From a virus: a DNA stretch of 64,000 bases. The notes beneath the pieces are model-generated. The model was not told the origin of the DNA and searched no databases. It worked only from the letters and a program-made list of their open reading frames with translations. The DNA lies in IMG/VR virus record IMGVR_UViG_3300029827_000121, positions 9,744-73,743 of that record. One strand, written 5' to 3'. A program made the translations under genes and the position numbers. This document shows, piece by piece, positions 9,350-31,218 of the stretch; position 1 is the stretch's first letter, and each line of letters begins with the position of its first letter.

Positions 9350-10098
9350 TGATCAAATTTAGCCATTTTAATGCTTATCGATGTCAATAGTTGTGTTATT
9401 CTACCAATTACTAGCTAGTTGAATCGTTCTCTATTTGGTTGATAGGGGGAAGGGTAACTTCCTCGAAATCAGCCATTTGCGCGTTTTGAAACGTAGTATA
9501 CGCTTCCTCTCGTGCTTTAGCTGGTGCAATGGTTATATTTTGCTCAATGTCCACTTTGTCGCCGAAATCTTGCCGATTATACCTTGACATAAACCATTGA
9601 CGGTGACCCCAAACACGGTCGAAACGGCGTATGCGGTTACTTGTACGTTTGTAATTATCGTCATTTTCGACCTGATTATTGAGTATTTGAACTTCACCTT
9701 CAAATTCATCCGCGACTGCGTGCGTACGATGTCGTACGGCAGTTCGCCACGTGTTCAACAGTTGAACAGACACCGATCTCCACAGATACACCGTCGTTTT
9801 GGCTAGTCCGTGGCGTTTAACGATATTGTCGATGGTGTCGGTAGTAGTGGCTATTTCGAGGATAATGCTTTGCATTTTTCGGGCGTCATAGTGCTGTAAA
9901 CCGAAGGGCGTTTTCACTGAAGCAGGGACCAGCAATTCTTTTTCCTCAGATGATAGGTGGGATACGTTCGGTTTTTCCTCCCCTTTTATCACCTGCAAAG
10001 CATTTTTATCACTTGTCATGATGCTCCTTTTTTATCTATTTAATAAATTAAATTATGAGCATGCATAATTTAACTCGTTAAATGGCTAAATTTGATCA
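9350..10098. repeat. 19-bp perfect inverted repeat pair flanking terS (9350-9368 / 10080-10098)
   Basis: TGATCAAATTTAGCCATTT and its reverse complement AAATGGCTAAATTTGATCA. Confidence 0.9.
9411..10019 (-). CDS. terS: Terminase small subunit
   Basis: HTH (GLAKTTVYLW) followed by helical region and RQWFMSRYNRQDFGDKVDIEQ motif typical of TerS; upstream of terL. Confidence 0.85.
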   Translation of the reverse strand: MTSDKNALQVIKGEEKPNVSHLSSEEKELLVPASVKTPFGLQHYDARKMQSIILEIATTTDTIDNIVKRHGLAKTTVYLWRSVSVQLLNTWRTAVRHRTHAVADEFEGEVQILNNQVENDDNYKRTSNRIRRFDRVWGHRQWFMSRYNRQDFGDKVDIEQNITIAPAKAREEAYTTFQNAQMADFEEVTLPPINQIENDSTS

Positions 10099-10250
10099 AT
10101 TTGACCATAATTAACTAAAAGTTAAATTATACACGTGTATAATTTAACACGTTAAATTATGAGCATGCATAATTTAACACGTGTTAAATAGCGAAATTCG
10201 TTCAAAAACGCTATTTAACGAATATTAAATTATGAGCGTGTATAATTTAA
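10048..10250. repeat. Four 26-bp palindromic repeats TTAAATTAT-N8-ATAATTTAA
   Basis: Copies at 10048, 10122 (perfect 28-bp palindrome 10121-10148), 10152 and 10225. Confidence 0.9.
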
Positions 10251-10537
10251 ACGATTAATAGGGTATAGGGTTTTTGCACGCGCCCTACGGCGCGTGTTTT
10301 GTTCTCACTTTAAAATGCAATAAAATGCGAAAACAATGAAACCACTATGGTGAAACTAGCTAGCTAGGGTGAAATTGGTCGATATTATTGCCGTGGGGCG
10401 ATTGTGGATAGGCTGTACAGCCTATAGTATTATATCCCCTTCCGTAGGTTTCCCCTATTGGTTAATCCTGATTACTAGAGATTGTCACTAATAGGGTAAT
10501 GGTGTATGGTAAAATTAACCAATAACCGGGAGGTATA

Positions 10538-14553: not shown

Positions 14554-14808
14554 ATGTCAACCGAAATTAAGGCTATATATGACAATGAGGGGAAAACAAT
14601 CGACCGGTATACGGTATATTTCAATTCGTATAATGAAATCATTGACGGAAACCCTGTTTATAGTTGTGTGGCAATGAATGAACGGCCATTTCATCCCTTT
14701 GGTTTCTGCAATCACAATACGGGTATATTGGGGGAACACAATGGAAAAATCATTCCCTTCAAACAATTACCGGATATTTGCCAAAAAGCTGTTTTACTTT
14801 TATTATAA
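14554..14808 (+). CDS. Hypothetical phage protein
   Basis: YDNEGKTIDRYTV...PFHPFGF motif; TAACCGGAAAGGGG leader. Confidence 0.65.
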   Translation: MSTEIKAIYDNEGKTIDRYTVYFNSYNEIIDGNPVYSCVAMNERPFHPFGFCNHNTGILGEHNGKIIPFKQLPDICQKAVLLLL

Positions 14809-14905
14809 CAAGATCTGAATTGAAAGAAAGAATTCATTGCCGGAATATTGCCGAAAGGTTATTATTAAAGGATTGTATTAACCAATAAAAAAGGAGCGTG
14901 ACGCA

Positions 14906-15319
14906 ATGAAAAGATTTTTATTGCCGTGCATTATACTGTTTTTTGTTCCGACAATTAATGGGCAAAATATATATGTTAATGGTCAAGCAAAAGATAATAT
15001 TGGAAATAGATTAATTTATAAAGTCAAAGAGAACATCAGACAATCAAAAGGAATGATTTTATATCCTTCGGAAACCGGTTCAGGTATTCAAATCAACATA
15101 ATTACTTTAGATGCATTAGAAGATAATTTATCCACAGTATATTCTATTGTATGGACATGGACCACTTCAAACAATTTTAAATCATTTATTACTCATCATG
15201 TTGGTATGTGCGGAAAATATAAAATAAATGATGTTGCCGAACAAATTGTTGCCGATACGGATGAAATTATTATGGAATTAAAAAAGATAATACTTGATAT
15301 TTATAACGAAAATCAATAA
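14906..15319 (+). CDS. Secreted protein (signal peptide)
   Basis: MKRFLLPCIILFFVPTING N-terminus; AAGGAG SD. Confidence 0.65.
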   Translation: MKRFLLPCIILFFVPTINGQNIYVNGQAKDNIGNRLIYKVKENIRQSKGMILYPSETGSGIQINIITLDALEDNLSTVYSIVWTWTTSNNFKSFITHHVGMCGKYKINDVAEQIVADTDEIIMELKKIILDIYNENQ

Positions 15320-15390
15320 TACTCTATGAAGGAAAGCAAACGCCAAAATATTTTTTTAACTCAAAAACAATAGAAAGGATGGAAAAATAT

Positions 15391-15648
15391 ATTGCCATGG
15401 CGTAGTTGGGCCTTGTTACGCATTGCAAAGCAAAGGTAATGCCAAGTATAGCAATGTATTGTGTTGTAAAGGTATAGTGTAGCTGGGCCATGTTGCGCTG
15501 TGCAAAGGCAAAGCGTAGTTAGGCAATGTAGTGTATGGCAAAGGTAATGCGAAGTTGGGCCATGTAGCGTAATGCAAAGGCATAGCTCTGCGTGGTATAG
15601 TTAAGCCATGCAAAGGCATTGCATAGTTGTGTGAGGTAATGCAAAGGC
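15391..15648 (+). repeat. Array A1: (NNNGY)n + AAAGGY units, about 7 units; putative guide ncRNA
   Basis: Parse: aaaggt aatgc caagt atagc aatgt attgt gttgt aaaggt atagt gtagc tgggc catgt tgcgc tgtgc aaaggc... Confidence 0.9.
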
Positions 15649-15663
15649 ATGCCTTGAGCAAAG

Positions 15664-15740
15664 TAAATTTTCCCTGTCCCGATTCACTGCCTTCATTGTA
15701 TCAGGCGGATGAAGGTAAGGAAAAAGGCAGGGAAAATTTA
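15664..15740. other. Stem-loop insert interrupting array A
   Basis: 13-bp perfect IR TAAATTTTCCCTG/CAGGGAAAATTTA with inner CCTTCAT/ATGAAGG stem. Confidence 0.8.
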
Positions 15741-15754
15741 TAATTATTTTCGCT

Positions 15755-16577
15755 AATGCAAAGTAATGCAGCGCTTGTCACCGCAAAGGCACGGTTTAGT
15801 TTGGCCCCGTGTTTCTAAGCGAAGCAAAGGCGAAGCATTGTGAAGATAGGTGATGATAAGCAAAAGATAAGTAATGTTTTGTAAAGTTTAGTAATGCACA
15901 GGCATAGTTCTGTATTGTATCGTATAGCACAGCAAAGGCATGGTGATGTACAGTGAAGTTCAGCAATGTACAGTAAAGACTAAGTCAGGTGTAGTACAGC
16001 AAAGCAATTGTAACGCACAGCAAAGGCATAGTTCAGTATAGTAAAGTTAAGCGAACCATCGGCAAAGTATAGCGGAGTATAGCTTGGCAAAGACTATGTT
16101 TGGTGCAGAGGGGTGCAGCTAAGTACAGCAATGGCGATGCATAGAAAGGTGGTGGGAAACACTGCACAGGCTAGGCAAAGTGGAGCATAGCTTGGCAAAA
16201 GCAAAGCGGGGCGTCGTTTTGTGTTGTATGGCAAAGCAAAAGCAATGTGAAGCAGGGTCTTGTTTAGCACAGGTAATGCAGTGTATAGTATTGTGTGGCA
16301 ATAGCACAGCGGAGCTGTGTTACGCACCGTTTGGCATAGGCATAGTTTAGTGAAGTAATGCATAGCATAGGCAGAGTCTGGAACAGTACCGTTTGGCACA
16401 GGCATAGTTAAGCCCCGTCATATACAGTTGCGCATTGTAAAGGCTGGGCGTAGTGATGCATAGTGAAGCACAGGCAAAGCTTGGCAATGTAATGTATAGC
16501 TCAGGCAAGGCGTGGCAAAGCATAGTACAGTCGCGCACAGGCAATGCGAGGCGCAGTATGGTGTTGTATTGAAAAGC
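15755..16577 (+). repeat. Array A2: (NNNGY)n + AHAGGY units, about 23 units; putative guide ncRNA
   Basis: Same 5-nt periodic grammar, more degenerate hexamers (aaagac, aaaagc, aatggc). Confidence 0.9.
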
Positions 16578-16582
16578 AAAAA

Positions 16583-16611
16583 GGTTTCGTCTCGTTTTTT
16601 GAGGCGAAACC
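16583..16611. terminator. Hairpin closing array A
   Basis: GGTTTCGTCTC/GAGGCGAAACC stem immediately after the last unit. Confidence 0.5.
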
Positions 16612-16643
16612 ACTACTTTAACTTTAACAAAAGGAGTCCCATC

Positions 16644-17057
16644 ATGAGATACGCAATTGCCGTTTTGAGACACGCAAAACAACCAGACATCAAATGTCTG
16701 GAAATGCCGCAATTTTACCGCTCTATAAAAGAGATAGCTGTTCCTCATGCTTTATTGTTTGAAGATTTATCTAAAGCTCTTCAGATAAAAAATGAATTGG
16801 ATATCAGCCCTTATATTGCCGAAGGGGATGAATGGGCAAAACCCGACTTCTATGTAGTCAATCATGTCGTCGCCGATTACATCCGTACGGCACGTTTTGG
16901 TAATGAAGATGTATATGAATGGAAAAAATGTTTCTGTGAAAAGAACAACGGCGCACCTTGTCGGGAATGTTTTATATGCATGCGTTTTCGAATCCTTTCA
17001 GATCGAAGATTCATTATTACTCATCGTGAAGTTGAAAAGGAAGGAGTAAAGGCATGA
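16644..17057 (+). CDS. Hypothetical protein with Cys cluster (start MRYAIAV)
   Basis: AAGGAG SD before ATG 16644; the longer ORF-track start lies inside the array. Confidence 0.6.
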   Translation: MRYAIAVLRHAKQPDIKCLEMPQFYRSIKEIAVPHALLFEDLSKALQIKNELDISPYIAEGDEWAKPDFYVVNHVVADYIRTARFGNEDVYEWKKCFCEKNNGAPCRECFICMRFRILSDRRFIITHREVEKEGVKA

Positions 17058-17446
17058 AAATGTCGGTTATTCTCATACTATTATGTCTATTTTCCTGCAA
17101 CAGCCTTCGAGGACCAACGGGTCCGGCAGGTCCGGCAGGTCCGCGAGGACCACAAGGAGAACAGGGAGAACCGGGAGAAATACGTCCGATTGTAAAAAGC
17201 GGTATCCTTTATTCTTCTGAAAAAGTGGAAGGAAAAGATTATTGGGAAATCATATTACTCGGACATGAAGATTTTTTTGTCATGTTACCTGATACCATAC
17301 TTATTAATTGTTATGTCCGTAAAGGAAGTGGGTATATGTGGCATTCCCCGATTTGGTATTATGGTAACTGGTATATAAGAATCTTTGATGATGAGGAATG
17401 CGATCCCGGTGATGAGTACATAATTACCGCTATTGTTCCCGATTAA
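17054..17446 (+). CDS. Lipoprotein with collagen-like Gly-X-Y repeat
   Basis: Lipobox LFSC then GPTGPAGPAGPRGPQGEQGEPGE. Confidence 0.8.
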   Translation: MKMSVILILLCLFSCNSLRGPTGPAGPAGPRGPQGEQGEPGEIRPIVKSGILYSSEKVEGKDYWEIILLGHEDFFVMLPDTILINCYVRKGSGYMWHSPIWYYGNWYIRIFDDEECDPGDEYIITAIVPD

Positions 17447-25600: not shown

Positions 25601-26045
25601 CGGTGTTTGGTAAGGTAATGCAAAGGCACCGTGGGGTGATGTATTGTCAAGCACAGGTACAGCACGGTTTTGTTTAGCATAGGCAACGCATTGTTATGAC
25701 ATGTTTTGTTAAGCACAGGCATAGTGAAGCAATGTAAAGTTTTGCACAGGCATGGTGATGTAAGGTTTGGTAAGGTGATGCACAGGCAATGCGCGGTGGA
25801 GTTTCGTTATGCACAGGCACGGTTTGGCAAAGCACGGCTTCGTTTTGCATAGGCGGTGTGGCGTTTAGTAAGGTGAAGCTTGGTCATGCACAGGCAGTGC
25901 GCGGTGAAGTTTCGTTATGCACAGGCAAGGCAGGGTAATGTTTGGCCCAGCACAGGCTAAGCTTGGTGTTGTTTGGTAAGGCACAGGAAGAGCAAAGTGA
26001 GGTTTAGTATAGCACAGGCGAAGTAAAGCATAGTCAAGCAAAGGC
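25601..26045 (+). repeat. Array B: 13 complete (NNNGY)4-7 units separated by A(C/T/A)AGGY; putative guide ncRNA
   Basis: 67 of 68 pentamers end in GY; all 13 units end in GC before the hexamer (GCAHAGG core). Confidence 0.95.
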
Positions 26046-27676: not shown

Positions 27677-27879
27677 AACCATTGGTTTTATTGGGTGAAA
27701 CCTACTCCGTCGTAGAGTTGCTAAACCTGCGTAGGGGCAACTCTACCGGAGGTTCAAATCCTCTCCCCTCCGTTTTTTTAACGAATTTGGGCACTTTTTT
27801 TAAAAACCTGCTTTCCATCATGAGTATTTTTATCCTCAAATATACTATCATCAGGGCCAATTGTAGTCTTTTTGTAGCC
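27635..27879 (+). mobile_element. attP: core = 3' half of tRNA-Ser(GCT) (27718-27772) with arm-type repeats
   Basis: TT-GCT-AA loop, long variable arm, GGAGG-TTCAAAT-CCTCT T-arm, CCCCTCCG; no 5' half; paired (T/G)GTAG(C/T)C repeats 11 bp apart at 27635/27646 and 27862/27873. Confidence 0.9.
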
Positions 27880-27932: not shown

Positions 27933-29313
27933 AGAGGCGATGCATGGTATGGTTCAGTATTGTTATGCACAGGCAGAGCATGGTTAAGCCAAGCACAGGC
28001 AAAGCGAGGTAGAGCGAAGTCAGGTGATGCACAGGCACAGCAGAGTAAAGTTAGGTCATGCACAGGCAGAGTGATGTCTAGTAAAGCATAGGCGTAGCGA
28101 TGTGCTGTTATGTACAGGCACAACAGAGTAGAGTTTGGTATTGTTTAGCACAGGCATGGTCTAGTTTTGTTTGGCACGGTAAAGCAAAGGCAAAGTGCTG
28201 TAAGGTGAAGCACAGGCATGGTCTGGTTTAGCTTGATATTGCGCGGCACAGGCAATGTAAAGTGAAGTAAGGTGATGCACAGGCGATGCATGGTATAGCA
28301 ATGTATGGCACCGGCATGGTGCAGTGATGTTCAGTAAAGCATGGGCACGGTGCTGTGAAGTGTTGTATAGCAATGGCAAGGTGAAGTAGTGCATTGTGTG
28401 GCAAAGCCATTGCTTGGTGAAGTGCTGTAATGTCGAGCATAGGCAATGCATAGTGAAGCATTGCTCTGCAAAGGCAAAGCGTGGTTTAGTGATGCAAAGG
28501 CATAGTTTTGTGACGTGCTGTTTCGTAAAGCATAGACTATGCGTTGTGACGCTGTGTATTGCAAATGAAAGGCGAAGTGGTGCATGTCGCTGTATGGCAA
28601 AGGCGAAGTAAGGTGAAGCACTGTGATGCATTGTGGAGCACAGGCATAGTGAAGCATTGTGCAGCATAGGTAAGGCAAAGCGGTGTGTTGTTTCGTCATG
28701 CACAGGCATGGTATCGCGGCGTTTAGTGCGGCAAAGGAACGGCAAAGCTTGGCATGGCGATGGTAAAGCGTTGAGTAGTTTGGCACAGCACCGGCAAAGT
28801 AAGGCGAAGTAGTGTTTAGCATAGCATAGGCAAAGCATAGTGAAGATAAGGAACGCGTCGTGAAGTCAAGCACCGGCAATACATGGTAAAGCACCGTTTG
28901 GCCTTGTTAAGGCGAAGTATTGTGTGGTATGGTGTTGTGGAGCATTGCACAGGTATAGCATGGTGCTGTTATACTTTGTGTAGCGCGGGAAAGGCATGGT
29001 AAAGTAAGGTTGTGCCTCGTGTACCACAGGAATGGCAAAGTGAAGTTATGTAATGTGGGACAAAGGCTGAGTAACGTTAAGTAAAGTGATGCATAGGCAT
29101 GGCAACTCGCGGTAACGTATTGCCCGACGAAGCAAAGGTAAAGCATAGCAATGTGACGCGCAGCGGGGCGAGGGTAATGCATAGTAATGTAATGTGCAGC
29201 GGGGCAGGGGTAATGTGAAGTATAGTTTAGTCGCGCAAAAGCTTTGTATGGATTTGCGTAGTTAAGTGTTGCAAAAGCAGGTCGATGTAACGTATCGTAT
29301 GGAACAGCACTGT
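27933..29313 (+). repeat. Array C1: about 41 (NNNGY)n + AHAGGY units; putative guide ncRNA
   Basis: Continuous pentamer/hexamer parse; ends in a T-run. Confidence 0.95.
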
Positions 29314-29370
29314 TTTTTTTAACCATTTTGGAAAAAACCAATTGGATCAAATAGAAAGGAGATGTTCGCG

Positions 29371-29478
29371 ATTGTAAAGTGCTGTATTGCAATGTGGGGT
29401 TTTGCAACGGCTGAGTTGAGCAAGGAATAGTTTGGCGATGCAAAGGTATAGTGTAGTATTGCTAATCAATGCAAAGGT
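29371..29478 (+). repeat. Array C2: about 3 units directly upstream of the RAMP gene
   Basis: attgt aaagt gctgt attgc aatgt ggggt tttgc aacggc ... aatgc aaaggt. Confidence 0.8.
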
Positions 29479-29512: not shown

Positions 29513-30145
29513 ATGAAGACGCTCAAAGTAAAAATCACTTTCCAAGAAGAAGTGTTGGGAACAGCAAGTCCGTCAAAAGAAATCCACGCGGAATATATAG
29601 CCAGCAAAGCTCCCGACAAACTAACGCGGGAAGAAGAAGTGGAAGCTATCGGGATAGAAGAAGTCGTTGAAAAAGCAATGACTATCTTCCCACGCGATAA
29701 GGATAGTAATCCCATCTTTTGGGATTACCAGTGGAAGGGATTTTTCAAAGATACCTGCGCCGCTCTCATGCGCTGTGAAGGATTCGAAACGTATAAGGCA
29801 TCAAAATCCGAATCGGGTAAAGGAAAGAAAGGAGAATTAAGAGCATATAAAAAGGTGATCGATGGATGTATTTTCGTTCACCCGAGAATGATTGCCATCA
29901 AAGTAAAAGGCAAAATGGGAAACTGTCAACGTCCTCTTCGCGGAAATACCGCGCAGGGAGAGAGGATTGCTTTGGCGAACAGTGAAACCGTCCCCGCAGG
30001 AAGCACCTGCGAATTGGAGATTCAATGTTTGAGTGATTCCCATGAAAAGTTTGTGCGTGAATGGCTTGATTACGGCCAATTGCGCGGCATCGGACAATGG
30101 CGTAACTCCGGCAAAGGCCGCTTTACCGTCAATTACTTGAAATAA
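29513..30145 (+). CDS. Stand-alone Cas7/Csm3-like RAMP-fold protein (210 aa)
   Basis: beta1 LKVKITFQEEVLG; PIFWDYQWKGFFKD (equivalent to IPGSSxKGxxR); ETVPAGSTCELEI; C-terminal Gly-rich loop GIGQWRNSGKGRF; GAAAGG SD. Confidence 0.85.
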   Translation: MKTLKVKITFQEEVLGTASPSKEIHAEYIASKAPDKLTREEEVEAIGIEEVVEKAMTIFPRDKDSNPIFWDYQWKGFFKDTCAALMRCEGFETYKASKSESGKGKKGELRAYKKVIDGCIFVHPRMIAIKVKGKMGNCQRPLRGNTAQGERIALANSETVPAGSTCELEIQCLSDSHEKFVREWLDYGQLRGIGQWRNSGKGRFTVNYLK

Positions 30146-31218
30146 GCCATGCTTTGGCAATCCAAAGTATAGGAATGCCCGGTGCGGTCAAGCATCGTTA
30201 ATGCTATGTATTGCAGGGTGGTGTATGGCACAGGCATGGTATCGTTAGGCATAGTAAAGTTAAGCATAGGCAAGGTAAAGCTATGCATTGCCTAGTAATG
30301 GTTTGGTAAAGCAGGGCCGGATACGGTGGAGCAAAGCACAGGCTTGGCGAGGCGTTGTATCGTGTGGCACAGGCATAGAATAGTTAGGAGTGGCCGAGCA
30401 AAAGCCAAGTGATGTATTGTCCGGCAAAGGTAAAGCATAGTGCTATTTCGTTGCGTAGAGCAGAAGCGAGGCGAAGTATAGTAATTCGTAGTATAGCAAA
30501 GGAAGTGTACCGTTAAGTTGCGCGAAGCAAAGGCTGAGTGAAGCGTAGTTTTGCGCCGCAAAGGCAAAGCGAAGTTCCGTTCAGTACGGCAAAGGCATGG
30601 TTATGTTACATACTGTGAAGCCCTGCAAAGGCATAGTTTTGCGTGGTTTAGCGACGCAAAAGAAGTGTGAAGCCTTGTTTCGTATCGCCATGCGAAGGTA
30701 TTGTACTGCGCAGTGCAGTCATGTATTGCAATGGTTGGGCGAAGCCCTGTCCAGTATGGCAAAGCAAAAGCAGTGTATGGTGAAGCTGAGCTAGCAAAGG
30801 ATCAGCATAGTTAAGTATCGCGATGCATTGAAAAGGCTATTCAATGTATAGTGTTGCAAAGGTAACGTGGAGTCAGGTGTTGTTTCGCGATGCAAAGGAA
30901 GAGCATAGTTGTGTTCCGTTCTGCAAAGGCAAAGCGAAGCGAAGTAGCGGCGTGTGAAGCATAGGCGAAACATGGTGGTGTTGAGTATAGTAATGCAAAG
31001 GCAAAGCGAAGCAAAGTAAGGTGTTGTGAAGCATAGGCAGGACATAGTGTGGTGCAGCATGGTAATGCAAAGGCGGAGTGAAGTAATGTAACGTACAGTT
31101 TCGCAGAGGCGTAGTAAAGTACCGTTGTGTTTGACAAAGCAAAGGTTCAGCAAAGCGTAGTATTTTATTGTTCAGCAAAAGCAAAGCTAAGTATCGTTCG
31201 GTCGTGCGAAGCAAAGGC
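30146..31218 (+). repeat. Array D: about 31 (NNNGY)n + AHAGGY units; putative guide ncRNA
   Basis: Starts at the RAMP stop codon and ends 3 bp from the convergent RusA-like stop; AAAGGY dominant. Confidence 0.95.

What the first reader, a model, noticed from the sequence alone, without database searches (positions are those of the whole stretch)
15391..16577. Orphan array 13 kb from the RAMP gene, inside the early region
Seen: about 30 units of the same grammar and strand lie between a secreted-protein gene and a hypothetical gene, with no RAMP next to them, and are closed by a hairpin (16583-16611). Inference: guides act in trans and can be expressed from the early transcript. Arrays total about 4.2 kb (6-7% of the window), a large cost for a phage, which implies selection.
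Basis: partly seen in the sequence, partly recalled or inferred. Interest (0 to 1): 0.75.

Follow-up and report, generated by a model that had tools for sequence, protein, structure and literature searches.

The report
Remote VIPR guide-RNA array in phage
This 1.2-kb stretch is a real, conserved bank of about 31 short guide RNAs for the phage's own VIPR system, a CRISPR-related RNA-guided DNA silencer first described in 2026; it lies 13 kb from the protein that should use it, so it is an unusually large and scattered example of a known kind of system.

Summary
Window 15392-16578 (+) parses into about 195 pentamers, 169 of them ending in G-pyrimidine. An A-H-A-G-G-Y hexamer closes each unit, giving about 31 units, all 5k+1 nt long (mode 36). 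G autocorrelation is 0.46 at lag 5, z = 16 against shuffles.

The closing hairpin (16583-16611) is real but has no U-run on the + strand.

The only RAMP gene in the 73.7-kb genome is 29513-30145. It folds as a Cas7-like protein and aligns over its full length with the tested Vipr of phage SUSP1 (hhalign 91%, E 1e-6). The arrays are therefore VIPR "staggered" vrRNA arrays of the published YNNNG type. This scan has met VIPR arrays before on other DNA.

Two relatives keep array A at the same place. Its G and hexamer positions are conserved (0-2.4% changed), its variable letters change at 14%, and each version has 6-10 private units.

Seventy-eight more distant relatives carry one ~440-nt array beside vipr, so the 4.27-kb, four-block layout is specific to this lineage.

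Expression, action in trans and targets remain untested or unfound.

The parts
15315..15391 (+). Conserved leader of array A; contains the 11-mer AATAGAAAGGA (15369-15379).
   Evidence: About 96-97% identical in G001 and L124, while the array units are about 83% identical. The 11-mer occurs exactly twice in the window, both times on the + strand just before an array start.
15392..15659 (+). Array A1: 7-8 units, six of them exactly 36 nt, closed by AAAGGY hexamers.
   Evidence: Parse; TRF periods of 36 and 72.
15664..15740 (+). Conserved hairpin that splits the array, followed by a conserved AT-rich tail (to about 15759) that holds TATAAT.
   Evidence: 13-nt perfect arms. Fold -48 kcal/mol, z = -5.1. 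About 98% identical in G001. In L124 the outer stem is kept, the apex is replaced, and it still folds with z = -3.7. No Rfam family matches.
15760..16578 (+). Array A2: about 23-24 units of 26-46 nt with mixed AAAGGC, ACAGGC and ATAGGC hexamers.
16583..16611 (+). Closing hairpin with a 12-bp stem.
   Evidence: Conserved with a pair-keeping change in G001. The exact pattern is also present in L124.
29513..30145 (+). vipr gene (210 aa, Cas7-like RAMP), the only one in the genome; presumed user of array A.
   Evidence: AlphaFold2 pLDDT 91. Foldseek top hits are Csm3 and type VII or type IV Cas7. Profile against PDB finds a Cas7 G-loop. hhalign to SUSP1 Vipr gives 91% probability. Single copy.
25602..26045 (+). 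Array B: 14 units.
27934..29478 (+). Array C: about 44 units, interrupted at about 29300-29370.
30159..31217 (+). Array D: about 31 units, directly after vipr.

Best explanation
Array A is a remote block of 'staggered' VIPR guide RNAs (vrRNAs) that belongs to the phage's own VIPR system.

Shown:
- The grammar is the same as in the arrays that flank the single vipr gene: NNN-G-Y pentamers, with one A-H-A-G-G-Y hexamer closing each unit of 5k+1 nt.
- The protein is a homologue of the tested SUSP1 Vipr.
- The skeleton of array A is under purifying selection, while its variable letters and whole units turn over.

Inferred:
- The array is transcribed on the + strand. This could be from its conserved leader or by read-through of the surrounding + strand genes.
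- The transcript is cut at or near the hexamers into RNAs of about 26-46 nt.
- Each RNA is coated by Vipr protomers made from the gene 13 kb away, one protomer per pentamer. The G and Y are held by the protein and the variable letters are offered to DNA.
- The filament binds matching DNA of rival mobile elements and silences it, as shown for SUSP1.
- The roughly 30 guides of array A are not copies of guides in arrays B-D, so A adds its own targets.
- The internal hairpin most likely divides the array into two RNA units, acting as a terminator, processing site or stabiliser.
For: Periodicity and parse.

Protein:
- No Pfam or PHROG family matches.
- The family profile hits a Cas7 G-loop in the PDB at E 1e-5.
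- The AlphaFold2 model has pLDDT 91. Its best Foldseek matches are Csm3 and type VII or type IV Cas7.
- The SUSP1 gene between GGYNN tracts aligns to the family profile over 175 columns at 91% probability, E 9.5e-7.
- The SUSP1 residues the cryo-EM paper names for G2 and Y3 (W178, R179) are kept as W196 and R197. Those named for G1 (H17, D177) are T17 and Q195. This fits a repeat that lost the first G (bioRxiv 10.64898/2026.04.26.720927).

Literature: YNNNG repeats and staggered arrays with a 1-nt overlap are listed in bioRxiv 10.64898/2026.04.26.720920. Solo vrRNAs acting through another element's Vipr are shown in 10.64898/2026.10.15.759431.

Conservation:
- Array A sits at the same place in G001 and in L124.
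- Within array A, N letters change at 13.9%, G at 2.4%, and hexamer positions 1, 3 and 5 at 0 of 20.
- The genome-wide rate at codon position 3 is 10.7%.

No unit of A duplicates a unit of B-D beyond chance. The array lies on the same strand as all neighbouring genes and as vipr.
Against: - There is no RNA evidence.
- No target was found under any reading rule, so the code for NNN-G-Y repeats (three letters read, or two) is unknown.
- No vap accessory gene was recognised next to vipr.
- In relatives whose Vipr is 60% identical, the G-loop QWRN is the same but position 5 of the pentamer is A, C or G rather than Y. The residue-to-letter matching is therefore only suggestive.
- The variable letters of retained units change at about the neutral rate, which gives no sign that individual guides are held to fixed targets.
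Confidence: 0.8

Rival explanations
1. Array A is a decoy or hijacking array. Its RNAs are meant to load the Vipr proteins of rival phages, or to soak up the phage's own Vipr, and send them to harmless or useful sites. Satellite solo vrRNAs do this to SUSP1.
For: The published precedent is. The array is separate from vipr and has its own conserved leader. Its guides differ from those of arrays B-D.
Against: The phage has its own Vipr with exactly this grammar, so ordinary use is the simpler reading. The grammar of more distant Vipr relatives differs at position 5, which would limit cross-loading. No decoy sites were found in the phage genome.
Confidence: 0.08
2. Array A is a decaying duplicate of the main arrays with no function of its own.
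For: 13% of its pentamers lack GY, and several hexamers are degenerate.
Against: Arrays C and D show the same level of decay. G and the hexamer core are conserved across three phages while the variable letters change. The length stays at 1.1-1.2 kb and about 31 units in all three. The units are not copies of B-D units.
Confidence: 0.05
3. The tract works as DNA, not RNA: for example phased protein-binding sites, an origin, or a structural element of the chromosome.
For: The 5-bp phasing with a +1 slip every 36 bp, and the strong strand asymmetry, could in principle serve a DNA-binding protein.
Against: Identical grammar directly flanks vipr here. In 70 or more relatives it directly follows vipr on the coding strand. 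That is the published arrangement of transcribed vrRNAs.
Confidence: 0.03

Closest known systems
VIPR systems with staggered vrRNA arrays and alternative YNNNG repeats (bioRxiv 10.64898/2026.04.26.720920, Methods and figs S17-S18)
   Same: A lone small Cas7-like Vipr protein. Five-nucleotide repeats with fixed G and Y and variable letters. Units abut with a one-base slip and have no separate tail. Phage-borne.
   Different: About 120 units in 4.27 kb spread over four blocks, one of them 13 kb from vipr, against one ~440-nt array in relatives. A conserved hairpin lies inside the array. No vap gene was recognised. No RNA or target data exist here.
Type II VIPR of Escherichia phage SUSP1 (Vipr + Vap1 + four vrRNAs)
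   Same: Homologous protein. Guide tracts lie on both sides of vipr on the same strand. Presumed silencing of rival elements.
   Different: SUSP1 uses GGY/NN repeats, about 100-nt vrRNAs with a pseudoknot tail and a vap1 gene. Here the first G is free, units are 26-46 nt, there is no tail, and the reading rule is unknown.
Solo (orphan) vrRNAs of F5 satellites and VIPR-null SUSP1-like phages (bioRxiv 10.64898/2026.10.15.759431)
   Same: Guide RNAs encoded away from any vipr gene and used in trans.
   Different: Those elements lack vipr altogether and carry 1-2 vrRNAs at the old VIPR locus. Here the genome keeps vipr, and the remote block holds about 31 guides in another part of the genome.
Orphan CRISPR arrays used in trans by Cas proteins encoded elsewhere
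   Same: An array remote from its effector genes, with its own leader.
   Different: There are no long identical repeats and no unique spacers, so it is not a CRISPR array. cas1 was not searched for; the only Cas2-like signal is weak profile hits that I judge to be chance (see Noticed in passing).

Membership tests
VIPR system | Vipr protein: a single-RRM RAMP with G-loop and thumb, homologous to characterised Vipr. | tested here: met
   hhalign to SUSP1 Vipr gives 91% probability over 175 columns, with the G-loop GDWR aligned to GQWR.
VIPR system | Tandem 5-nt repeats with fixed and hypervariable positions. | tested here: met
   169 of 195 pentamers end in GY. Lag-5 autocorrelation is 0.46, z = 16. 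62 of 64 possible trinucleotides are used at the variable positions.
VIPR system | Fixed positions conserved and variable positions hypervariable between relatives. | tested here: met
   In array A, G changes at 2.4% and N at 13.9%. Y changes are mostly C to T or T to C.
VIPR system | Array beside vipr on the same strand. | tested here: not met
   Array A is 12.9 kb upstream of vipr, though on the same strand. Arrays C and D do meet this feature. Published solo vrRNAs show that adjacency is typical rather than obligatory.
VIPR system | A vap accessory gene next to vipr. | tested here: inconclusive
   vipr is flanked directly by arrays. The neighbours are xis-int upstream and a convergent 126-aa ORF downstream, which has no PADLOC hit.
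VIPR system | vrRNAs are expressed and co-purify with Vipr. | not testable with these tools
   No RNA run was listed for this stretch.
VIPR system | Non-contiguous recognition of DNA targets in rival elements. | tested here: inconclusive
   There is no excess of matches over shuffled guides under seven rules in 1.7 Mb of relatives' loci, or under three rules in the phage's own genome. Three IMG/VR scans gave chance-level hits.
Staggered vrRNA array (sub-architecture) | Units abut with a one-base offset and have no tail. | tested here: met
   All units are 5k+1 nt (26 to 46) and each ends in one hexamer. No tail or pseudoknot lies between units. The processing sites themselves are untested.
CRISPR array | Identical direct repeats of about 23-50 nt separated by unique spacers, with cas genes. 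| tested here: not met
   The only conserved element is an 8-nt GC-AHA-GG-Y core. No cas family was hit in the genes I scanned. The Cas2-like hits on 14906-15319 are weak, and that gene is absent from both relatives.

The most novel reading that the evidence does not exclude
Array A may be a separately controlled guide bank with its own leader (AATAGAAAGGA, shared with the restart of array C) and an internal structured RNA. It would be expressed with the lytic-phase genes, while vipr and arrays C and D sit at the int/attP end of the prophage. The phage would then aim different guide sets at rivals in different life-cycle stages. Its ~120-guide library would be renewed by unit duplication and mutation rather than by spacer capture.
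Probability: 0.2. Interest if true: 0.6.

Novelty: new member of a known kind. Interest (0 to 1): 0.4.

Why it matters
VIPR was described only in 2026, mostly from systems with a few guides next to vipr.

This phage carries about ten times more guide sequence than its relatives, spread over four blocks. One block is far from vipr and is kept in three related phages. That makes it a natural case for three open questions:
- How vrRNA arrays are transcribed and cut.
- Whether remote arrays are used in trans by the phage's own Vipr.
- How guide repertoires grow without Cas1-Cas2.

The three versions of array A already show a fixed skeleton with fast unit turnover.

It also places VIPR in a phage whose attachment site matches Chitinispirillaceae (Fibrobacterota).

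Tried and rejected
- RNA evidence: no RNA holder was listed for 14800-17200.
- Known RNA families: none at Rfam gathering thresholds in the whole window. Only chance-level miRNA hairpin hits appeared at E 0.6-4 in 15300-16700. No tRNA genes were found.
- DNA similarity of array A to 50,697 phage records: none.
- tblastn of Vipr against the same records: four unannotated human-faecal phages at 50-54% identity.
- The A1 profile did not find SUSP1 Vipr by translated search. It was located through its GGYNN tracts instead.
- An 8-pentamer GY pattern was too strict to detect arrays. It was replaced by an autocorrelation detector run on fetched genomes.
- Target search in 1.7 Mb of relatives' loci: real guides match no better than reversed or shuffled guides under NNN+0/1/2 and NN+0/1/2/3.
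- Target search in the phage's own genome, under NNN+0, NNN+1 and NN+1: same result.
- IMG/VR exact scans: guide 15940 hit one 51%-GC phage (three near-identical contigs) under NNN+1 and one giant-virus MAG under NNN+0. Guide 15791 hit nothing. All are at chance level.
- Cas2-like hits on 14906-15319: rejected. The gene is an ORFan with one homologue, the AlphaFold2 model has pLDDT 39, Atlas look-alikes are unnamed secreted-size proteins, and the gene is missing from both relatives.
- The hairpin-core pattern found no further relatives in metagenome contigs.
- Sigma-70-type promoter and terminator scans around the array were at chance level.

Full report
**The observation.** Window 15391-16577 is a G-rich, C-poor tract (G 29%, C 16%). 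Its G autocorrelation is 0.46 at lag 5 and 0.50 at lag 36. Coding controls are flat. Against 1000 shuffles these values are z = 16 and 17, and no 200-nt window outside the four arrays exceeds 0.22.

A dynamic-programming parse tiles the tract into 195 pentamers, 169 of which end in G plus a pyrimidine. It also finds 32-33 hexamers of consensus A[ACT]AGG[CT]. Every unit is 5k+1 nt long (26, 31, 36, 41 or 46; mode 36).

The same grammar on the same strand occurs at 25602-26045, 27934-29478 and 30159-31217. Together the arrays total 4270 nt, which is 6.7% of the window and 5.8% of the 73.7-kb phage record.

The upstream gene (14906-15319) has a signal-peptide-like start. The downstream gene (16644-17057) has no family. 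The closing hairpin at 16583-16611 is real, but it is followed by no U-run on the + strand.

It has 13-nt perfect outer arms, a fold energy of -48 kcal/mol and z = -5.1.

**What the system is.** The only RAMP-like gene in the genome is 29513-30145. It has no Pfam, PHROG or PADLOC family. It belongs to a very large unannotated family: more than 7900 hits, and 1649 clusters at 50% identity.

- A profile of 57 members hits the G-loop of a type VII Cas7 (E 1e-5) and of Csm4 in the PDB.
- The AlphaFold2 model has pLDDT 91. Its best Foldseek matches are Csm3 and type VII or type IV Cas7.

- bioRxiv 10.64898/2026.04.26.720920 describes phage-borne Vipr proteins that use vrRNAs made of 5-nt repeats. 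It lists alternative YNNNG repeats and "staggered" arrays in which one vrRNA ends where the next begins, with a 1-nt overlap.
- bioRxiv 10.64898/2026.04.26.720927 shows one Vipr protomer per repeat, with G2 held by R138 and W178, Y3 by R179, and G1 by H17 and D177.

I located the SUSP1 locus through its GGYNN tracts. I took the 195-aa gene lying between them; its residue numbering matches the paper. It aligns to my family profile over 175 columns at 91% probability, E 9.5e-7.

In that alignment W178 and R179 correspond to W196 and R197, both at least 90% conserved. The two G1 readers, H17 and D177, are T17 and Q195. This fits a repeat in which the first G has become free. An RP motif with an invariant Arg (R140) sits where the SUSP1 thumb has R138-P139. 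That equivalence is my inference from the motif, not from the aligned columns. One caveat: relatives with the same QWRN loop allow A, C or G at position 5.

**Is array A part of it, and is it functional?** Neither flanking protein resembles Vipr, so A has no RAMP of its own. Two relatives carry array A at the same site.
- G001 is a 73-kb IMG/VR phage whose Vipr is identical or nearly so in protein: 100% by the genome search, 99.5% by tblastn.
- L124 is a 2.9-kb metagenome contig.

Both relatives lack the signal-peptide gene, so that gene is an insertion in this phage. Coding regions of G000 and G001 differ by 2.4%, 1.3% and 10.7% at codon positions 1, 2 and 3.

Conservation across the locus is uneven:
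- The leader 15315-15435 is about 97% identical.
- The hairpin is about 98% identical.
- The units are about 83% identical and show unit-sized insertions and deletions.

In units of A that have a syntenic counterpart at 80% identity or more (21 of 30):
- the variable letters differ at 13.9%;
- G differs at 2.4% (Fisher p = 1e-4);
- hexamer positions 1, 3 and 5 differ at 0 of 20 each.

Pooled over all arrays the picture is the same, and changes at Y are mostly between C and T. Each of the three versions has about 31 units and 1.1-1.2 kb, with 6-10 private units.

The skeleton is therefore under purifying selection while the content turns over, which is what a working guide array should look like. 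Units of A are not copies of units in B-D. In L124 the apex of the hairpin is replaced but the outer stem and the fold persist, which points to a structural role.

**How unusual is the layout?** I scanned 78 other viral contigs that encode a Vipr of about 60% identity, 10 kb to each side. The rule there is a single array (median 440 nt) directly downstream of vipr on the same strand. Four complete or near-complete genomes among them have no second array anywhere. The tenfold expansion and the remote block are thus specific to this lineage (G000, G001, L124).

The published "orphan" vrRNAs are in elements that lack vipr. Here vipr is kept. Another follow-up of this scan reported a second, remote array in a different VIPR phage, so the arrangement is not unique.

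**Expression and mechanism.** All genes from 11.2 to 31.2 kb, array A and vipr are on the + strand. The consensus scan finds no + strand terminator between 14800 and 16900, so read-through is possible.

The conserved leader carries the 11-mer AATAGAAAGGA. This motif occurs exactly twice in the window, both times on the + strand: 13 nt before array A and 10 nt before the restart of array C. This hints at an array-specific signal. I could not recognise a promoter, and no RNA run was listed.

Use in trans by Vipr is inferred from three things: the shared grammar, the single vipr gene, and the published hijacking of Vipr by satellite vrRNAs.

**Targets.** I found none. It therefore stays open whether NNN-G-Y repeats read three letters or two per protomer.

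**Host.** The attP region 27718-27779 is identical over 49-64 nt to the 3' part of tRNA-Ser(GCT) in Chitinispirillaceae MAGs. Those MAGs have no Vipr homologue.

**Verdict.** The system is VIPR, a known kind, and the scan has met it before on other DNA. What is notable here is the scale and the scattered, conserved layout.

Noticed in passing
window 14906-15319: This signal-peptide ORF, just upstream of the array, gives weak hits to Cas2 profiles: Pfam E 0.0048 (below cut-off) and three PADLOC Cas2 models at E 0.001-0.008. It is an ORFan with one homologue, its AlphaFold2 model has pLDDT 39, and it is absent from both relatives that keep the array. I judge the hits to be chance.
   Followed up: yes
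window 27718-27779: The attP core is identical over 49-64 nt to the 3' part of tRNA-Ser(GCT) in Chitinispirillaceae (Fibrobacterota) MAGs from one study. Two of the three host contigs break inside the tRNA. This family is the likely host. Those MAGs encode no Vipr homologue.
   Followed up: partly
window 15369-15379 and 29350-29360: The exact 11-mer AATAGAAAGGA occurs only twice in the window. Both copies are on the + strand, each preceded by a T-run plus AAC, and each lies 10-13 nt before an array start (array A, and the restart of array C after its interruption). It is a candidate shared leader or promoter signal.
   Followed up: partly
loci L019-L097 (relatives with about 60% identical Vipr): Their arrays fix only the G. 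Position 5 is A 0.28, C 0.38, G 0.29, T 0.05. Units are mostly 26 or 31 nt, and there is one array of about 440 nt directly after vipr. The grammar thus differs within one protein family that shares the QWRN G-loop.
   Followed up: partly
window 29300-29370: Array C is interrupted by a short hairpin plus a T8 run and about 60 nt of non-periodic sequence, then resumes for three units before vipr. This parallels the hairpin that interrupts array A.
   Followed up: no
window 10047-10258: Two copies of a 104-nt repeat, with internal 30-nt palindromic units, lie between the small-terminase-like gene (9411-10019, minus strand) and the start of the + strand gene block. They may be operators, an origin or a packaging site.
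   Followed up: no
window 17054-17446: This small ORF has a collagen-like Gly-X-Y stretch encoded by 9-nt tandem repeats (17120-17179), two genes downstream of the array.
   Followed up: no
L120-L122 (IMG/VR contigs, about 51% GC): Guide unit 15940, read as NNN plus one skipped base, matches one ORF of a phage found in three samples at all 21 specified letters. This is one independent hit and is compatible with chance.
   Followed up: partly
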